DNA of 64,000 nt from a virus (IMGVR_UViG_3300007965_000002:25862-89861), one strand, 5' to 3'. Positions 286 to 23,703 are shown, numbered from the stretch's first letter. Numbers and translations are program-made. Notes: generated from the letters alone by a model not told the origin.

Positions 286-476
286 GGTGGATAATGTATA
301 AGGGCTGTTTCAATGATTTTTTTATCCACAGGTTATTAACAGGTTATACATTATCAACAGGGTTTATAGGCCACCAGCAACATTTTGACAATGGTAAGAC
401 CAATTGACCAAGTTATCCACAAAATTATTTTGTTTAATGTATAACTCACCTGTTAATAAGTCTAGACTTATCCACA
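286..476. promoter_or_regulatory. DnaA-box cluster 1
   Basis: Perfect TTATCCACA at 322-330, 413-421, 468-476; near-matches at 286-294 (rc), 333-341, 351-359, 451-459 (rc). Confidence 0.85.
371..378 (-). other. Chi octamer GCTGGTGG
   Basis: CCACCAGC on + strand. Confidence 0.5.
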
Positions 477-522
477 AGTACCACACATGCAAGAATCATG
501 CCAAAAAATTTTCGGCGCGGCG

Positions 523-587
523 AAATGAGAATGATTCTCATTTGCATTCAACCCAGTGAGCTACCAGGATGAGAATGATTATCATTT
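523..587. promoter_or_regulatory. Two Fur boxes
   Basis: AAATGAGAAT-G-ATTCTCATTT (523-543, perfect 10-1-10) and ATGAGAAT-G-ATTATCAT (569-585) match the TGATAAT-N-ATTATCA Fur consensus. Confidence 0.75.
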
Positions 588-609
588 GCATATGCAAGTT
601 TGCTAATAC

Positions 610-742
610 AAGTTGGCATGGTTTTTGTTGCGAACTATTATCATATGCGTTTTTGCTAATATACCTATATGCAAGTTTGCTAATATTAACATTAGATTCT
701 ACTAATATAAGTTGGCATGGTTTTTGTTGCGAACTATTATCA
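610..742 (+). repeat. 34-bp direct repeat AAGTTGGCATGGTTTTTGTTGCGAACTATTATCA (610-643, 709-742)
   Basis: Exact duplication; each copy holds a sigma54-like motif and a weak Fur-like site (TGCGAAC-T-ATTATCA). Confidence 0.9.
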
Positions 743-873
743 ACAAGAATCGTGCCAAGTCAAGAATCGTGCCATAACAGTAAAATCTAATATATAGCTC
801 TAGAACGCGCTATAACGTGATTTGCCGGTACTATTATTTTTTGAAGCCCTAGTATCAAAACCTTTTTAAAATG

Positions 874-881
874 CCACCAGC
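874..881 (-). other. Chi octamer GCTGGTGG
   Basis: CCACCAGC on + strand. Confidence 0.5.
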
Positions 882-895
882 AGCCAAAGCGTGAC

Positions 896-1189
896 TTATC
901 CACAAAGTTATCCACAAGCAATGGGGTTGACATTCTCAAAAGGCCATTTCTATCCACAATTTGCTAGTTATACATAAAAAATCTGTGGATAAGTGAATAA
1001 CTAGCATGTTTTACAAATGTCAAATTTATTTGAAATAATGCTTAACAAAGTTATCCCCACCTGGTAGAGCCTGGACGTGCCCCTTGTGGATAACTATTAC
1101 CAAATAGGCCGATTCCTTGGATTCTAGGAAAGTTATCCACAAAATTACAAACCAGGAAAATTATCTGTGGATAAGTGCCCTGTGGATAA
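896..1189. promoter_or_regulatory. DnaA-box cluster 2
   Basis: Perfect TTATCCACA at 896, 908, 1133; reverse TGTGGATAA at 984, 1085, 1166, 1181; near-matches at 950, 992, 1051. Confidence 0.85.
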
Positions 1190-2945: not shown

Positions 2946-3383
2946 ATGTTTTCACCCAAACTCAACTTATCTGATTTAGTCGCAGAGCATAAAGGCCATA
3001 TTGCAGCCGTATTAGATACCCAGTCCGAAATTGAGCGCTTAAAGGAACTAGCATTTCAGCAAAAAGAAGCGGCTAAACTTGACCGTGATACGTTAACGCA
3101 ATTAATACGCCAATTGTCTAACGAGCGTCACCCAAGCAACAACGGCATGTTGCAAGAAGCAAATGTTAGCGCTTTGCTTGGCGCAATCAATATTAACTTT
3201 ACTGCTTATAACAGCTCAAATGATGAAGTTAGACTAGCGTATGATAAGGCCGTTAACGTCTACAATGACGCAATGGTAAAGCTATTTAAAGCAAAAATAG
3301 CATATATCGAAAGTTGTGCTGTTTATGGTAGTATGGCAGGCTTATCGGTTAACTGGCAAGCGCTAGAAAAACGTAGCAAGTAA
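2946..3383 (+). CDS. Pre-early hypothetical coiled-coil protein
   Basis: 145-aa ORF with strong RBS (conserved CCCGTAATGACGGAG leader). Confidence 0.75.
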   Translation: MFSPKLNLSDLVAEHKGHIAAVLDTQSEIERLKELAFQQKEAAKLDRDTLTQLIRQLSNERHPSNNGMLQEANVSALLGAININFTAYNSSNDEVRLAYDKAVNVYNDAMVKLFKAKIAYIESCAVYGSMAGLSVNWQALEKRSK

Positions 3384-3423: not shown

Positions 3424-5097
3424 ATGAAACAAGTTAAAAACCTATCTGTAGCGACACAAGCGGCATTGTTAAATCTTGCTCAAAATGAGTTTAATTATTA
3501 TGGCAAGCGTACCCGTTCAACTCGCCTAACTTGTGCTGAACAAATGCTTAGAGAATGTGAGTTAATCGGAACGGTAGAAAGTGCCGATTTAGTGGAATGG
3601 CTGGCAGAAAATAAACCAGCACCAGCACCAGCCAAAGAAAAAGCCGAAAAAGTTAACGCTCCGTTAGTTCCTACTTTCAACGGCGAGTTAATGCATCGTG
3701 ACGATATTATGCAAAGCTTACCTGATGGCGTTTATATTATTTCTAGTGCGCAAAATAATACATTGCCGCACCCTACACTAAAATCATTAAAAACTTTAGC
3801 GGGTGTTTTAGAGGCTCAACTTTTATTGATGCCTATTAAATACACAACAACGCTTGATAGCTTGGAACGCAAAACGCCAACTTATGACGATAGTGTTACA
3901 CCTTATCTAGTAGAGAATAATATCTGGCTAGGTGGTCGTGGCTGTGTTCGCTTGGCAGTTGGGGCAAATATCCTGCCAACCGCTAAGCAGCCAATTAACA
4001 CGGCAGCAAACTTGAATAAAGGCGAGTCGTTAACCGTTGTTGCCTCACCTAAAAAGCAACTCAAAACACTAGCCCGTTCAAAAGATGGTGCACATCGTTG
4101 GGTATATACAACGGGTTCATGTACACAACGCCATTACACTGACACCAGAGCAGGCGAGGAGGGATGTGATTCACATACGTTCGGGGCATTAGTTGTCACT
4201 GTTAATGAGGGTTATGTCGAGCATCAAGAAATTGTGGCAGATGAAAGCGGGGCATTTTATTATGATATGGCCTGTTATGATGGTTTTAACATAACAGAGA
4301 TTCACAAGACACCAGCACTAGTTTTAGGTGACTTACATTGTGAAAAGATGTGCGAAAACTCGCTTGTAAGAGCATTAGCCCAAATTGATATTTATCAGCC
4401 CTCACAAGTTATTTTACACGATACACTAGATTTTATGTCTAGAAATCATCACAATCGAAATAGCGGTTTGTTTCTATATACAATGGGTTCCCGCTCTGTT
4501 TTAGATGATTTAAATGATGCTGTTCATGTTGTAAATAGAATTGCTGCCCAATGCGATAGCGTTTTTATCGTTTGCAGTAATCACGACTTAGCCCTTGATA
4601 GCTGGCTTGATGACCCAAAATACAACGCTGATAAAGACCCTATCAACGCTAAAACGTATTATTTCTTGAAACATGCTGTTTTAGAAGCAATTGACAGCGG
4701 GGACGAACTAGACGCACCACGCTTAGCAATGTTTGATTTAGCAATCACTAAACTAGTCGAGCAGTTAGCGGAACCATTAGCCAGTAATGTTATATTTGGC
4801 CGTCTAGATATGAGCCATAAGATTAACGGATTCGAATGTGGTTCTCATGGGCATTTAGGTAACAGCGGCGCACGTGGTTCGCAACGCTCGTTTAAAGCTT
4901 ATCAGATGCCTTGGATTAGCGGCCATACACATTCACCCGCCCGTGATGGTAATGTGTTAACCGTGGGCGTTACTGGTTCGCTGGAAATGGGCTACAATAA
5001 AGGTGGTACTATGTGGGATAGAGCAAACGCCTTAATCCTGCCAAATGATACAGCCGTATTAATTCCCACGTATGCAATAGGAGAGCAGCAAGCATAA
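3424..5097 (+). CDS. A1: T5 A1-like protein (metallophosphoesterase-fold nuclease; host DNA degradation / second-step transfer)
   Basis: 557 aa; EFNYYGKR, SSAQNNT, GDLH, SNHD, GHTHS motifs; synteny. Confidence 0.92.
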   Translation: MKQVKNLSVATQAALLNLAQNEFNYYGKRTRSTRLTCAEQMLRECELIGTVESADLVEWLAENKPAPAPAKEKAEKVNAPLVPTFNGELMHRDDIMQSLPDGVYIISSAQNNTLPHPTLKSLKTLAGVLEAQLLLMPIKYTTTLDSLERKTPTYDDSVTPYLVENNIWLGGRGCVRLAVGANILPTAKQPINTAANLNKGESLTVVASPKKQLKTLARSKDGAHRWVYTTGSCTQRHYTDTRAGEEGCDSHTFGALVVTVNEGYVEHQEIVADESGAFYYDMACYDGFNITEIHKTPALVLGDLHCEKMCENSLVRALAQIDIYQPSQVILHDTLDFMSRNHHNRNSGLFLYTMGSRSVLDDLNDAVHVVNRIAAQCDSVFIVCSNHDLALDSWLDDPKYNADKDPINAKTYYFLKHAVLEAIDSGDELDAPRLAMFDLAITKLVEQLAEPLASNVIFGRLDMSHKINGFECGSHGHLGNSGARGSQRSFKAYQMPWISGHTHSPARDGNVLTVGVTGSLEMGYNKGGTMWDRANALILPNDTAVLIPTYAIGEQQA

Positions 5098-5136
5098 TGT
5101 TAGATAGAGATTATAACGGCTACCCCATTAAGTAAC

Positions 5137-5172
5137 TTAACCCGCTTTGTTCCACGTGGAACAAAGCAACCC
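5137..5172. repeat. 36-bp repeat copy 1 with parS palindrome TGTTCCACGTGGAACA (5148-5163)
   Basis: Perfect 16-bp parS inside a 24-bp palindrome (5144-5167); identical copy at 5432-5467. Confidence 0.8.
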
Positions 5173-5194
5173 CCCTTTTTACGGAGTTACCCAA

Positions 5195-5431
5195 ATGTCA
5201 CAAGTTAATATCACGTTTACCAAAGACACCCCAGAATCATTCGAACCTGAAACAGGGCAATTTTTTCAGGTTAATGAATGCCATACAAACGAATTGATTT
5301 TAATAACTGACGACACCCATGTGTGCGTTATTTTATCTAGTGGTCAATTAATGGACGTTGAAAACCTAGACGAAAAGCTTACCCGCGATAACTTAGTTAT
5401 TGATTTAAAAATCGAAGCAACCATTAAATAA
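5195..5431 (+). CDS. Pre-early hypothetical protein (78 aa; ORF track start 5147 overlaps the palindrome)
   Basis: GGAG RBS upstream of ATG 5195. Confidence 0.7.
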   Translation: MSQVNITFTKDTPESFEPETGQFFQVNECHTNELILITDDTHVCVILSSGQLMDVENLDEKLTRDNLVIDLKIEATIK

Positions 5432-5467
5432 TTAACCCGCTTTGTTCCACGTGGAACAAAGCAACCC
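5432..5467. repeat. 36-bp repeat copy 2 with parS palindrome (5443-5458)
   Basis: Exact duplicate of 5137-5172. Confidence 0.8.
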
Positions 5468-5497: not shown

Positions 5498-6121
5498 ATG
5501 AGCCAATTTAAGCCAAAGCATATTACAATTTTTGACCTAGACAGAACCGTTATAGATAGCGACCATCGCACCCCCTACGATAATGATGGCAACCTAGATT
5601 TAGCAGCATATCGCGACAACCAAACACACGCTAACATTATGAATGACACACTTTTACCCTTAGCTAAACTTATGCAATCGCGCATAGCCCAAGGGGAAAC
5701 CGTGGTAATCGTTACTGCAAGGCGCATGATTAAGAGTGATTACATATACCTAAGAAAGAACGGATTAAAAACCGCGTATACTTGCAGTCGTGACCAATTA
5801 TTCAAGCGCTTCGATAATGAAACCGCATCAATGATTTATAATCTTAATGATGCAAACTACAAATGGCATTGGTTTAACCATTTACAGAACCGTTTTCCTC
5901 TTGCCTCGTTTACTGTATACGATGACCATAAAGGCGTATTAAAGGTGGCGCAATCGTTTGGCTTTCAAGTGTACGATGCAATTAGTGTTAATAGTATGCT
6001 GGCTGATTTTCTTGATATGGGATTTGAAGAAGGATTTGCGCAAGGATTAGACGCGGGTTATCTGGACGGGGAAATGAGCGCTATTCATCAGGTAATTGAA
6101 TTTGACAGCAGAGCAGCCTAA
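5498..6121 (+). CDS. dmp: Deoxynucleoside-5'-monophosphatase (HAD family)
   Basis: IFDLDRTVIDSDHR motif I, VTAR motif II, YDDH motif IV; last pre-early gene as in T5. Confidence 0.9.
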   Translation: MSQFKPKHITIFDLDRTVIDSDHRTPYDNDGNLDLAAYRDNQTHANIMNDTLLPLAKLMQSRIAQGETVVIVTARRMIKSDYIYLRKNGLKTAYTCSRDQLFKRFDNETASMIYNLNDANYKWHWFNHLQNRFPLASFTVYDDHKGVLKVAQSFGFQVYDAISVNSMLADFLDMGFEEGFAQGLDAGYLDGEMSAIHQVIEFDSRAA

Positions 6122-6201
6122 GCGCAATGCTGGTAGTATATGCATCAATGCTAATATAGTGCAATATGTTAGCATTGCATTATCCCCCTGTTAGAGCATT
6201 A

Positions 6202-6232
6202 GCCCTTACTAATATATAGTAAGGGCATTTTT
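6202..6232 (+). terminator. Rho-independent terminator after dmp
   Basis: GCCCTTACTA-atata-TAGTAAGGGC followed by ATTTTT. Confidence 0.8.
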
Positions 6233-6241
6233 ATTATGTAC

Positions 6242-6348
6242 AAATGATAATCAATATCAAATGAGAATCATTCGCATATGATAAGCCAGGAACAAATGAT
6301 AATCATTCGCATTTAGGGTGGGGGCGGTAATGAGACTCATTCTCATTT
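6242..6348. promoter_or_regulatory. Four Fur-box-like sites at the presumed terminal-repeat boundary
   Basis: 6242-6262, 6259-6279, 6294-6314, 6328-6348, all TGA(T/G)A(A/C)T-C-A(T/A)T(A/C)(T/G)CA. Confidence 0.7.
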
Positions 6349-6443
6349 GACCCAGGCCCCACCCCTTTTCATGTAACTACTATGAAAAATTAGAGGAAAT
6401 GGCTTAGGCCGCCTCTAAGAGCAACTAAGCGGTTCCCTGAAAG

Positions 6444-6597
6444 CAACTATGCATAATTCCCCAACTATGCATAATTCCCATAACTATACATAATTCCCAT
6501 AACTATGCATAATTCCCCTAACTCCCTATACTCCCTTTACTTCCCAACTTCCTATACTCCCTTTACTTCCTATACTCCCCGCACCCCTCCACTCCCA
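6444..6597 (+). repeat. Tandem 18-19 bp repeats (x4, YAACTATRCATAATTCCC) followed by a C/T-rich tract
   Basis: Units at 6444, 6462, 6481, 6500; CCTATACTCCC repeats 6524-6580. Confidence 0.85.
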
Positions 6598-6698
6598 AAG
6601 AGACTACTAATCTAAAAGACTCCAAATACAATTCTTAATTTTTTAATTTAAAAATACTTGGCTAGTACCTTACTTGCATCCGAGGTAGAAAATTAATC

Positions 6699-6727
6699 TT
6701 TACATATATTAATAATAACGTTATAAT
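6699..6727 (+). promoter_or_regulatory. Promoter for packaging genes
   Basis: TTTACA-17-TATAAT. Confidence 0.75.
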
Positions 6728-6763
6728 AACCCTATTATTAACACACATCTAAGAGGAAAGTAT

Positions 6764-23200: not shown

Positions 23201-23703
23201 CATTTGCTCAGTTAGGTCCATGGGGCGCAGTACCTGCTGCTATGATTGCAGCTATGGGTGCTATGCAGCTATCTTCACTTGATTCTGGAACCGTTGCTGA
23301 CCCTTCAGGGGCTGGTAATATAGGTAAACTAGAGTTAGGTAGTAGAGATAACGTTGTTAACCTAGATAAAGGAGCTACAAGTGGAGAACTAAACTATGTT
23401 CGCGGTAATAGCGGTGTTGGTGGAATTCAAGACTTTGTACCTAGAGCACGTGGTAATAACATGAGTCCTAACGTTTCTTATGCTACTGGTGAACATGGCA
23501 TAGAGGTTGTATCTTCTGATAGTTCTAGAACTAGTGTTACTTCTGCTGAGAATGTAGATGGAACTTCTTCAGGAAGAAAAGGTATAGGTATGGCACTTAC
23601 TATTAATGCACTTGACTCTCAGTCTGTTATAGATAGAGCTGCTGAAATCTTTGCTGCTGTAGAGGCAGAAGCAAACTCTAGGGGTTATACTTTAGAGAGA
23701 TAA
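20236..23703 (+). CDS. pb2: Tape measure protein (pb2-like)
   Basis: 1155 aa helical Ala/Gln-rich, C-terminal hydrophobic segment; synteny. Confidence 0.92.
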   Translation: MANKLIEELIINVKQKGLTTVTNNVKKLQDNMVNAAAGAELLDSSLKPIPESLKQILAEAKQVDQIIGNLGMGAGTDRLEAVLQEIEDSMLELVGSSVKMNETLEQGFKSMSSNSANEIHDLIVQLERLEDTTENVGRRNTLQTQLNEKLAASQERVNRGLGRTNAQGRGQARNFANIARVAGPLPGLYAVIAANVFTLSEAFRVMTEGDQLNRLEKVGTILGAQVGVPIQSIARDMEEATGYTISYEQALRQATSAATYGFGAEQITDMTIAARRASVALGVDMTDALNRIIRGVSKLEIELLDELGITVRLTEAYDTYARSIGKTADSLSGYQKQQAYLNAVLKESEARQSAVDPLTQATGWERLGASLSGATTRGKQWISGFLEPAAAAAANIFSEDNLTKGQKVIEANLETLKKSIEAGDKGSVYSMLTGDAKAQAQYKKLNADMLNLQYQAELMRDTLAATPDNLGKNLIYRQISGIESAIDAVTAKMRVYNEALESGKTYLNKHSDAQIEAGNEAYKEAASIAKSAEEYTKITSAVKGVAKPYEVLQNNLTSVSEGLANFIAIGGTAEEFYKEIKISKETIDGYTNLQAAMEKVAVATATLGASQAAITWSDAQKGVATETTALKLQQQSINLLTKEIALAKQASATKSEGSILELEAQRNTLISERGFLLQAEARALLDASQSTRELSLLQATYIDQVANASSEYVRQKAITTQQLIFQQEQLDLAVAQNKPLAERAALEMQILQTKQKSTDLDKAELTNKFGKETDALNQGNSTGNAGPISDLTKQVQLAEQQTAIAQAKGAEFHDQYLERLSNELALKVQLQQMELSREATLQNLFMSRIGMQSTIAMNMEEELAYQNQIGASIYESSRAVLDGFDPAMGSMFDGLEKFTYALKNMGNTSEGVWNGVSSGIQAAAGVMSFMSDQAIQDIDKQIEAEKKKDGKSAESKKKIAQLEAKRKNEEMKAKRISIVSSTAAGIMQSFAQLGPWGAVPAAMIAAMGAMQLSSLDSGTVADPSGAGNIGKLELGSRDNVVNLDKGATSGELNYVRGNSGVGGIQDFVPRARGNNMSPNVSYATGEHGIEVVSSDSSRTSVTSAENVDGTSSGRKGIGMALTINALDSQSVIDRAAEIFAAVEAEANSRGYTLER

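What the first reader, a model, noticed from the sequence alone, without database searches (positions are those of the whole stretch)
5137..5467. Two perfect chromosomal parS centromere sites in a lytic phage pre-early region
Seen: TGTTCCACGTGGAACA at 5148-5163 and 5443-5458. Each sits in a perfect 24-bp palindrome, duplicated as an identical 36-bp unit in the intergenic gaps either side of a small gene. I recognise no parA/parB gene in the window. Established: this 16-mer is the chromosomal parS consensus form (as in Pseudomonas); ParB loads on it as a CTP clamp, spreads and can recruit SMC; E. coli has no chromosomal ParABS. Inference: the phage uses host ParB to position, coat or pull its DNA, or sequesters ParB to disturb host segregation. 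It also suggests a ParABS-positive gammaproteobacterial host rather than an E. coli-like one.
Basis: partly seen in the sequence, partly recalled or inferred. Interest (0 to 1): 0.85.

Follow-up and report, generated by a model that had tools for sequence, protein, structure and literature searches.

The report
Host centromere sites on T5-like phage
An uncultured groundwater relative of phage T5 carries, in the first DNA it injects, two exact copies of the bacterial chromosome's centromere sequence (parS) but no ParB of its own; six related lineages keep the same sequence, so it most likely borrows the host's ParB, a trick known so far from Bacillus phage phi29.

Summary
TGTTCCACGTGGAACA lies at 5148-5163 and 5443-5458, each in a perfect 24-bp palindrome inside an identical 36-nt unit. 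The units flank a 78-aa ORF between the pre-early genes A1 and dmp.

Six related lineages (A1 70-76% identical) all carry TGTTNCACGTGNAACA in the same gap. Over 11 sites the 14 fixed bases never vary, while the flanks hold 0.4 bits. Only the two N positions change, and not in a compensating way. Both orientations occur, and several sites form no RNA hairpin. This is a conserved double-stranded DNA site identical to chromosomal parS.

No ParA or ParB gene was found in the 89.9-kb contig or in 9.4 kb more. T5-like phages with A1 at or below 57% identity lack the site.

In this phage the palindrome probably also serves as an mRNA hairpin. ParB binding and its purpose are inferred, not shown. The host is unknown. 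The phage also carries a MetJ-box array, which points to an Aeromonas-, Shewanella- or Vibrio-like host rather than Pseudomonas or E. coli.

The closest precedent is phi29, which carries host parS sites. This scan has already reported orphan host-type parS on several other phages. I class this as a new variant of a known kind.

The parts
5148..5163 (.). parS site 1, TGTTCCACGTGGAACA (perfect palindromic consensus)
   Evidence: invariant core across 11 sites of 7 lineages
5443..5458 (.). parS site 2, identical 16-mer
5137..5172 (+). 36-nt unit, copy 1, containing the 24-bp palindrome 5144-5167. It starts 1 nt after the stop of the micro-ORF. The RNA hairpin is 10-12 bp.
   Evidence: D4, I1; fold -20.1 kcal/mol, z -4.6
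5432..5467 (+). 36-nt unit, copy 2, containing the 24-bp palindrome 5439-5462. It starts directly after the stop of the 78-aa ORF.
   Evidence: fold -19.9 kcal/mol, z -4.3; terminator-like by the consensus scan
5195..5431 (+). 78-aa acidic ORF enclosed by the two units. It has homologues in two relatives (46% and 30% identity) that are also enclosed by two parS sites. Its sequence is weakly WD40-blade-like and its function is unknown.
   Evidence: AF2 pLDDT 60.6
3424..5097 (+). A1 (DNA transfer protein), a T5 pre-early gene
   Evidence: phrog_1745, E 2e-145; 48-49% identical to Vibrio T5-like phages
5097..5135 (+). Conserved 12-codon micro-ORF (MLDRDYNGYPIK) whose ATG overlaps the A1 stop (TAATG)
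   Evidence: sequence; DYNG(W/Y)P(I/V) is kept in L125, L129, L130 and L167
5498..6121 (+). dmp-type deoxynucleoside 5'-monophosphatase (HAD), the last gene of the pre-early operon
   Evidence: phrog_415; PF26880 on the identical gene in L168
2417..2884 (+). A2 homologue (pre-early, DNA-binding in T5)
   Evidence: PF26822 on L168 8994-9461, mapped through the 99.99% alignment in which window 1 = L168 6578
6202..6226 (+). Terminator-like hairpin plus T-run that ends the pre-early operon
   Evidence: the RNA contig of run X19 ends at 6188 (weak hint); homologous hairpins in relatives
6241..6596 (.). Non-coding repeat block: four Fur-box-like palindromes (6241-6346), four 19-nt repeats (6445-6523) and C-rich 9-nt repeats (6514-6596). 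By synteny this is the likely boundary of the terminal repeat and the injection-stop region.
   Evidence: Fur-like boxes conserved in relatives; the repeat of Vibrio phage River4 ends just after dmp
322..1189 (.). Cluster of 10 perfect DnaA boxes (TTATCCACA) in non-coding pre-early DNA. It shows that this repeat collects sites for host proteins.
   Evidence: 14 of the contig's 15 perfect boxes lie between window -2116 and 1181

Best explanation
The two 16-mers are real host-type parS sites. They are double-stranded DNA docking sites for the chromosomal ParB of the unknown host, acquired once at the base of a clade of uncultured T5-like phages and kept by selection ever since. The phage appears to have no ParA or ParB, so the sites can only work with the host protein. 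By synteny with Vibrio T5-like phages they lie in the terminal repeat. That places them about 1 kb from its inner boundary, in the first-step-transfer DNA close to where injection stalls. It also places them about 1 kb from the right end of the genome, giving four sites per virion genome. My proposed mechanism is inferred, not shown. Host ParB-CTP clamps load at these sites as soon as the first DNA segment is in the cell. Together with the DnaA, Fur and MetJ sites in the same repeat, they make this DNA a nucleoprotein copy of the host origin region. The purpose would be to hold, position or protect the phage DNA. Draining ParB from the host is a less likely purpose. In this particular phage the site has been extended to a 24-bp palindrome. 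That palindrome also takes over the role of the mRNA stem-loop that relatives keep as a separate element just upstream.
For: 1. Exact match. The sequence is the published perfect parS.
2. Presence in all close relatives. Six further lineages with A1 70-76% identical all carry TGTTNCACGTGNAACA between A1 and dmp, in 1-3 copies.
3. Conservation of the site itself. Over 11 sites all 14 fixed positions carry 2.0 bits, against 0.40 bits in the 20-nt flanks (alignment A3).
4. Pattern of variation. Changes occur only at the two N positions and give only the half-sites GTTCCAC and GTTTCAC, the two half-parS forms listed for P. aeruginosa (PMC7022226).
5. Changes are not compensatory. C5/A12 breaks a pair. 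Both orientations occur, including a flip between two phages at least 90% identical in A1 (L131 against L171). The hairpin next to that flipped site changes by compensatory substitutions.
6. No RNA structure at several sites. L125 site 2 and L129 site 2 have fold z-scores of +0.7 and -0.3. In L129 site 1 and L130 the parS lies outside a separate hairpin.
7. Single origin. The seven lineages form one group in the A1 tree with support 97/99.
8. Absence in more distant relatives. No parS with up to 2 mismatches was found in about 215 kb of loci from A1 relatives at or below 57% identity.
9. No partition genes. No ParB_N, HTH_ParB, AAA_31 or CbiA match in the 89.9-kb contig. None in 9.4 kb more of the genome.
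10. The 16-mer is not a chance word in viruses. It occurs in at least 120 IMG/VR contigs (capped), against 3 for the reversed control.
11. A matching host type exists. In Aeromonas, 25 of 26 genomes carry exactly these two variants, 15-23 kb from parB where both lie on one contig, and 13 of 13 genomes searched have ParB.
12. Context. The same repeat holds 14 perfect DnaA boxes, 14 Fur-like boxes and a 10-unit met-box array. Davison proposed that DnaA boxes in the injection-stop region of T5 bind host DnaA (bioRxiv 10.1101/866236).
13. Precedent. phi29 carries five parS sites that work through host Spo0J (PMC2731898).
Against: No binding data exist and the host is unknown, so the cognate ParB cannot be named. 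About 17 kb of the roughly 116.7-kb genome was not examined, so a phage-encoded ParB-like protein is not excluded. The nearest cultured relatives, the Vibrio T5-like phages, infect ParABS-positive hosts yet lack the site, so it is not a general need of T5-like phages in such hosts. All sites lie 17-39 nt upstream of a start codon inside a transcribed operon. A role in expression control, such as a ParB roadblock or an operator, is therefore as possible as positioning. Two to four sites per genome is a weak sponge. In T5 the host DNA is degraded early, which makes interference with host segregation of doubtful value. The location in the terminal repeat rests on synteny with River4, not on mapped ends.
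Confidence: 0.7

Rival explanations
1. The palindromes are only mRNA elements, such as an intergenic stem-loop acting as a leaky terminator, stabiliser or RNase III site, and the match to parS is a coincidence.
For: Both copies fold into stable hairpins (-20 kcal/mol, z about -4.5). Both are followed by C/T-rich tracts, and copy 2 passes the terminator scan. All T5-like relatives, including those without parS, have some GC-rich stem-loop directly after A1. The region is transcribed in aquifer RNA libraries.
Against: Relatives keep the 14 parS bases and not the pairing: C5/A12 is a mismatch. Four of the ten A1-dmp sites are unstructured or lie outside the hairpin, and both orientations occur. 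The neighbouring true hairpins change sequence freely with compensatory changes while the parS does not. The T-run starts 5-8 nt after the stem, not at it. A 16-bp palindrome matches one of the four palindromic parS forms by chance at about 6e-5 per palindrome.
Confidence: 0.07
2. The site is the operator or docking site of a phage-encoded protein, such as the DNA-binding pre-early protein A2 or a ParB-like protein in the unsampled part of the genome, and it merely resembles parS or has converged on it.
For: A2 binds double-stranded DNA as a dimer in T5 (bioRxiv 10.1101/866236). The sites always lie just upstream of a pre-early gene start. About 17 kb of the genome was not seen. Phages with private ParB and site pairs are known (earlier finding e1-3506915).
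Against: A2 is present in all T5-like relatives, but the site occurs only in one clade. The site matches the universal chromosomal consensus at 16 of 16 positions, and its variation is confined to the known degenerate positions. No ParB_N or HTH_ParB match was found in 99 kb examined.
Confidence: 0.13
3. The 36-nt units are recombination boundaries of a mobile small-gene cassette, like the stem-loops that flank shuffled ORFs in T4-type phages. On this view the duplication has no function of its own.
For: The 78-aa ORF is absent from the Vibrio phages and from three lineages of the clade (P0005, P0006 and P0099). Sister lineages P0004 (ORF, 2 sites) and P0005 (no ORF, 1 site) differ by exactly one ORF plus one site. 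The units are 100% identical while the sequence after them has diverged.
Against: This explains the duplication but not why the single-copy lineages keep the exact 16-mer, nor why only the parS core is invariant. It is compatible with the ParB reading rather than a replacement for it.
Confidence: 0.05

Closest known systems
Host-type parS sites of virulent Bacillus phage phi29 (and Nf), bound by host Spo0J/ParB (Meijer et al. 2005, as summarised in PMC2731898)
   Same: A virulent phage with no partition proteins of its own carries several copies of the host chromosome's parS consensus. The phage depends on the host ParB. Sites for other host DNA-binding proteins (Spo0A boxes there; DnaA, Fur and MetJ boxes here) occur on the same genome.
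   Different: The phi29 sites serve spore entrapment in a sporulating Firmicute. Here the phage is T5-like, and its relatives infect Gram-negative bacteria that do not sporulate. The sites lie in the terminal repeat, in the first-step-transfer DNA between A1 and dmp, so the purpose must differ. No experiment exists here.
Chromosomal parS of ParABS systems (TGTTNCACGTGAAACA; P. aeruginosa and P. putida TGTTCCACGTGGAACA; V. cholerae chrI NGTTNCACGTGAAACN; PMC7022226, PMC4368675)
   Same: The sequence is identical, 16 of 16. The same two half-site variants (GTTCCAC, GTTTCAC) occur. Aeromonas chromosomes carry exactly the two variants found in the phage clade.
   Different: The sites are not near an oriC or a parAB operon. 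They are on a lytic phage, inside a transcribed operon, with no cognate protein encoded in the DNA examined.
DnaA-box arrays in the injection-stop region of T5 (Davison, bioRxiv 10.1101/866236)
   Same: Sites for a host origin-region protein in the non-coding DNA of the first-step-transfer segment of T5-like phages. This phage also has 14 perfect DnaA boxes there.
   Different: A different host protein, ParB, is involved. Davison's model is itself an untested hypothesis. parS is restricted to one clade, whereas DnaA boxes are reported in all 25 T5-like phages he compared.
Plasmid and phage-plasmid partition cassettes (P1 parABS, N15 sopABC)
   Same: Centromere-like sites on a phage genome that recruit a ParB-type protein.
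   Different: Those elements encode their own ParA and ParB and have private site sequences. They belong to temperate, plasmid-like prophages. None of this applies here.

Membership tests
Chromosomal-type parS (ParB loading site) | 16-bp sequence matching TGTTNCACGTGNAACA | tested here: met
   16 of 16 at both sites. 11 of 11 sites in the clade match with 0 mismatches.
Chromosomal-type parS (ParB loading site) | Selection acts on the double-stranded DNA sequence and not on RNA pairing | tested here: met
   2.0 bits at all 14 fixed positions against 0.40 in the flanks. The N-position changes are not compensatory, both orientations occur, and some sites are unstructured.
Chromosomal-type parS (ParB loading site) | Bound by ParB, with CTP-dependent clamp loading | not testable with these tools
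   No DNA-protein assay or modelling was available, and the host is unknown.
Chromosomal-type parS (ParB loading site) | Lies near oriC and the parAB operon of the same replicon | tested here: not met
   No ParB_N, HTH_ParB, AAA_31 or CbiA match in the 89.9-kb contig, nor in L295. It is an orphan site on a phage.
phi29-type borrowing of host ParB by a virulent phage | Virulent phage without its own ParA or ParB that carries at least 2 host-type parS sites | tested here: met
   T5-like gene set (A1, A2, dmp, terS, terL, portal). Two sites are present and no partition genes were found in 99 of about 116.7 kb.
phi29-type borrowing of host ParB by a virulent phage | Host ParB-dependent segregation of the phage genome (into the forespore) | not testable with these tools
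   Requires a cultured host. Sporulation is unlikely, because all cultured relatives infect Gammaproteobacteria.
Intrinsic terminator or structured intergenic RNA element | Stable stem-loop whose pairing is kept by compensatory change across relatives | tested here: not met
   The stem-loop is stable in this phage. In relatives the parS core is not paired at 4 of 10 A1-dmp sites, and covariation is seen only in the separate neighbouring hairpin.
Intrinsic terminator or structured intergenic RNA element | U-run directly after the stem | tested here: inconclusive
   The T5 run begins 8 nt after the stem in copy 1 and 5 nt after it in copy 2. Only copy 2 passes the scan. RNA contigs break at the 36-nt repeat for assembly reasons, so read-through cannot be judged.

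The most novel reading that the evidence does not exclude
The terminal repeat of this T5-like clade is a deliberate copy of the host origin region. It is an ordered set of docking sites for DnaA, ParB, Fur, MetJ and sigma-54. Host proteins assemble on the first-injected DNA, and this assembly is part of the two-step injection mechanism itself. ParB-CTP clamps, loaded about 1 kb from the stall point, would hold or ratchet the DNA, or tether it at the ParB/ori pole, until A1 and A2 restart transfer.
Probability: 0.15. Interest if true: 0.85.

Novelty: new variant of a known kind. Interest (0 to 1): 0.62.

Why it matters
How T5-type phages stop and restart DNA injection has been open since the 1960s, as has what the crowded non-coding DNA of their first-injected segment does. 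A conserved, exact host centromere in that segment gives a concrete handle. ParB is easy to purify, image and delete, and the site can be mutated without touching a gene.

It also adds a Gram-negative, non-sporulating case to the single studied example (phi29) of a virulent phage that borrows the host's segregation protein. The parS 16-mer is at least 40 times commoner in IMG/VR than a reversed control, and none of the 120 loci sampled had a ParB gene nearby. This scan has also reported several other cases. Together these suggest that orphan host parS sites are a recurrent and largely unstudied phage strategy.

The combination of parS and MetJ boxes also serves as a sequence-only clue to the host of an uncultured phage.

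Tried and rejected
- **Similarity searches.** Megablast of the region against GenBank phages found nothing. Single-protein scans for A1 in IMG/VR and in bacterial genomes found no relative. The alignment-based scans of IMG/VR and of metagenome contigs returned only distant relatives at or below 57% identity, none with parS.
- **False lead.** L031, an IMG/VR fragment with a dmp-like gene, a terS-like gene and a parS, is not a T5-like relative.
- **Host identification.** There is no cultured phage above 49% A1 identity. The 20-mer with flanks occurs in at least 120 genomes of many phyla and so does not discriminate. Aeromonas fits on parS variants, ParB and MetJ, but its much higher G+C (about 60%, from memory) against 36.6% for the phage leaves it only a candidate. 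Shewanella and Vibrio could not be surveyed for lack of handles.
- **The 78-aa ORF.** The word-based search found only itself. The profile search found about 10 small homologues and weak WD40-repeat similarity. The AF2 model is poor (pLDDT 60.6), so no fold search was run. No link to ParB emerged.
- **RNA contigs.** The contig upstream of the first palindrome has a higher word depth than those after it in run X19 (35.5 against 7-10), but not in X20. Contig depth cannot rank genes, and contigs break at the 36-nt repeat for assembly reasons, so I draw no conclusion about termination. The uncovered stretches (301-1200, 6301-6600) are recorded only as uncovered.
- **Whole-genome search of relatives.** The complete 116.7-kb and 104.7-kb assemblies could not be searched as wholes.
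- **Side observation.** The ~100-kb IMG/VR contig family with a conserved parS (L082 and others) could not be identified.

Full report
**Observation**

TGTTCCACGTGGAACA occurs at 5148-5163 and 5443-5458 and nowhere else in the window, even with three mismatches allowed; no shuffle gave two matches. Each copy is the centre of the perfect 24-bp palindrome GCTTTGTTCCACGTGGAACAAAGC. Each palindrome lies in a 36-nt unit, 5137-5172 and 5432-5467, and the two units are 100% identical.

The window is part of an 89,861-base IMG/VR contig, and these are its only two copies. Looser matches are at chance level: five 3-mismatch hits against 3.9 expected. The 16-mer is the published perfect parS of Pseudomonas aeruginosa and P. 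putida (PMC4368675; PMC7022226 Table 1).

**Setting**

The genes are those of a T5-type pre-early operon:
- A2 at 2417-2884 (PF26822 on the identical gene in L168)
- an ORF at 2946-3383
- A1 at 3424-5097 (phrog_1745)
- a 12-codon micro-ORF at 5097-5135 that overlaps the A1 stop
- unit 1
- a 78-aa ORF at 5195-5431
- unit 2
- the dmp-type phosphatase at 5498-6121
- a terminator-like hairpin at 6202-6226
- a repeat-rich gap
- the small and large terminase genes from 6764

The nearest cultured phages are Vibrio T5-like Demerecviridae, at only 48-49% A1 identity. The same phage, at 99.99% identity, occurs as contigs of about 116.7 kb in many groundwater and aquifer metagenomes. It is also present in four aquifer RNA libraries, whose contigs cover the pre-early genes and the terminase region.

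**The decisive comparison**

If relatives keep only the hairpin pairing and not the parS bases, the element is an RNA hairpin.

I recovered six further lineages whose A1 is 70-76% identical to this one: P0002, P0003, P0004, P0005, P0006 and P0099. Every one carries TGTTNCACGTGNAACA with no mismatch in the gap after A1, in one copy, two copies, or two plus a third further upstream.

I anchored the 11 distinct sites on the 16-mer. All 14 fixed positions carry 2.0 bits of information. The 20 nt on either side average 0.40 bits (alignment A3).

Variation is confined to positions 5 and 12, and it is not compensatory. Eight of the nine sites in relatives read TGTTCCACGTGAAACA, where C5 faces A12. 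The other two sites (L131, and the upstream site in L125) read TGTTTCACGTGGAACA, which is the same sequence in the opposite orientation.

Two phages at least 90% identical in A1 (L131 and L171) differ at both N positions, which flips the site. The stem-loop immediately upstream of it differs between them by paired, compensatory changes: gcgacc/ggtcgc against gcggcc/ggccgc. A true RNA stem and the parS therefore sit side by side and evolve under visibly different rules.

RNA folding agrees with this:
- The second sites of L125 and L129 have no structure (z +0.7 and -0.3).
- In L129 site 1 and L130 the parS lies outside a separate hairpin.

The only half-sites seen are GTTCCAC and GTTTCAC, the two half-parS forms listed for P. 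aeruginosa ParB (PMC7022226). A site that tolerates inversion and conserves both halves is what a dimeric protein binding double-stranded DNA would select. An RNA element would not behave this way.

**Distribution**

The seven parS-bearing lineages form one group in an A1 tree with support 97/99. That is consistent with one gain followed by retention. I found no parS with up to two mismatches in about 215 kb of loci from A1 relatives at or below 57% identity. Those loci include the Vibrio phages, and two whole Vibrio phage genomes were also searched. These relatives do have a GC-rich stem-loop after A1, each with a different sequence.

**What happened in this phage**

Relatives L129, L130 and L167 have the order micro-ORF, hairpin (AAAGCGGG-loop-CCCGCTTT), then parS. 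Here the left arm of that hairpin is gone and its right arm (CCCGCTTT) remains. AAAGC has been added to the right of the parS, and this produces the 24-bp palindrome.

The palindrome therefore probably does double duty, as parS in the DNA and as the intergenic stem-loop in the mRNA (fold -20 kcal/mol, z -4.5). The RNA reading is not wrong for this phage. It simply cannot explain the conservation.

The duplication goes with the small ORF. Its homologues in L125 and L129 (46% and 30% identity) are also enclosed by two parS sites. Sister lineages P0004 and P0005 differ by exactly one ORF plus one site, as expected from recombination between the repeats. The ORF itself gave no functional clue.

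**Whose protein binds the site?**

No ParB_N, HTH_ParB, AAA_31 or CbiA match exists in the contig. None was found in a further 9.4 kb of the genome. A tblastn search with an Aeromonas ParB found nothing either. About 17 kb of the genome remains unseen. A2 binds DNA in T5, but it is present in every relative, including those without the site. The host's chromosomal ParB is therefore the best candidate.

**Host**

The host is unknown. The same terminal region holds:
- 14 of the contig's 15 perfect DnaA boxes
- 14 Fur-like boxes
- sigma-54-like motifs
- ten tandem 8-bp met boxes

This partly confirms earlier first-reader notes on this genome.

MetJ was found in 13 of 13 Aeromonas genomes and in 0 of 16 Pseudomonas genomes. 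In Aeromonas, 25 of 26 genomes carry TGTTCCACGTGGAACA. Some also carry TGTTCCACGTGAAACA about 2.5 kb away. Where parS and parB fall on one contig they are 15-23 kb apart, and 13 of 13 genomes searched have ParB. These are exactly the two variants seen in the phage clade.

That fits a freshwater host with both MetJ and ParABS, such as Aeromonas, Shewanella or a Vibrio-like genus. It argues against Pseudomonas and against enterobacteria. It is an inference only, and the phage's 36.6% G+C is far below that of Aeromonas.

**Position and likely mechanism**

In Vibrio phage River4 the terminal repeat ends just after dmp. By synteny the repeat block at 6241-6596 would be the inner boundary of the repeat and the likely injection-stop region. 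That puts the parS sites about 1 kb from the point where first-step transfer stalls, and about 1 kb from the right end of the genome. It also implies four sites per genome.

I propose that ParB-CTP clamps load there as soon as the first segment is in the cell. They would form, together with DnaA and the other host proteins, a nucleoprotein complex resembling the host origin region, one that holds, positions or protects the DNA. This is inference. Davison's untested proposal that DnaA boxes in the T5 injection-stop region bind membrane-associated DnaA is the nearest published idea (bioRxiv 10.1101/866236).

Two other possibilities stand:
- Every site lies 17-39 nt upstream of a start codon inside a transcribed operon, so a ParB roadblock or silencing role in expression is equally possible.
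- Titration of ParB seems least likely, given so few sites and the early destruction of host DNA in T5.

**Comparison with what is known**

The principle is established for phi29, which carries five parS sites and uses host Spo0J for spore entrapment (PMC2731898). What is new here:
- the phage family
- a host type that does not sporulate
- the location in the first-step-transfer terminal repeat
- comparative proof of selection on the site

The phenomenon looks broad. The exact 16-mer occurs in at least 120 IMG/VR contigs (capped), against 3 for the reversed palindrome. None of the 120 loci encodes a ParB detectable with the Aeromonas protein. This scan has already reported orphan host-type parS on several unrelated phages.

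**Verdict**

Its reading as a host-type parS is well supported by comparative evidence. Binding and purpose are untested. I class it as a new variant of a known kind, with interest 0.62.

Noticed in passing
window 5097-5135: A conserved 12-codon micro-ORF (MLDRDYNGYPIK) starts on the A of the A1 stop codon (TAATG). Four related lineages keep DYNG(W/Y)P(I/V) at the peptide level (L125, L129, L130, L167). L131 and L171 lack it. It may be a translationally coupled micropeptide or a regulatory leader.
   Followed up: partly
window 6241-6346, with homologous places in L126, L129, L130 and L131: Three to four Fur-box-like palindromes (AATGATAATCATTCGCAT, GGTAATGAGACTCATTCTCATT) lie just after the dmp terminator and are conserved across the clade. 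All 14 Fur-like hits of the contig lie between window -2251 and 6329.
   Followed up: partly
window 322-1189 and contig positions before the window (window -2116 to -1988): 14 of the contig's 15 perfect DnaA boxes (TTATCCACA) are packed into about 3.3 kb of non-coding pre-early DNA. About 0.7 would be expected by chance in the whole contig. This resembles the DnaA-box arrays Davison described for T5.
   Followed up: partly
G000 contig 23522-23601 (window -2340 to -2261): Ten tandem in-register 8-bp units resemble the met box AGACGTCT, with no met gene nearby. MetJ is present in 13 of 13 Aeromonas genomes and 0 of 16 Pseudomonas genomes, so the array may help to place the host.
   Followed up: partly
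window 6445-6596: Four 19-nt direct repeats (AACTATGCATAATTCCC...) are followed by C-rich 9-nt repeats (TCCCTATAC-like). By synteny with Vibrio phage River4 this is where the terminal repeat should end. It may be the injection-stop or terminus region.
   Followed up: no
window 6699-6761: RNA contigs of three aquifer metatranscriptome runs begin at 6751, 6753 and 6761, just downstream of a promoter-like site at 6699-6727 (TTTACA-17-TATAAT). This is a weak hint of the transcript start for the terminase operon. The pre-early contig of X19 ends at 6188, before the terminator hairpin.
   Followed up: partly
window 5170: The C-run after parS site 1 is one base shorter in all four RNA runs and in the 116.7-kb assemblies (spacing 294 instead of 295), which is a length polymorphism.
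   Followed up: no
IMG/VR loci L015, L032, L070, L074, L075, L076, L082, L088, L110: A family of contigs, many about 100 kb and most from one sample (3300045988), shares the exact parS 16-mer in a conserved intergenic context (...gaatTGTTCCACGTGGAACAatgg...). There is no ParB nearby and no match in GenBank phages. It may be another phage group with an orphan host parS.
   Followed up: partly
IMG/VR loci L058, L089, L122 and L021: Some viral contigs carry two different parS variants 8 nt apart (TGTTCCACGTGGAACA then TGTTTCACGTGAAACA). L021 carries two exact copies 297 bp apart, each followed by the same TTTTTGGTTATTAA. This arrangement recalls the one studied here, but the sequence is unrelated.
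   Followed up: no
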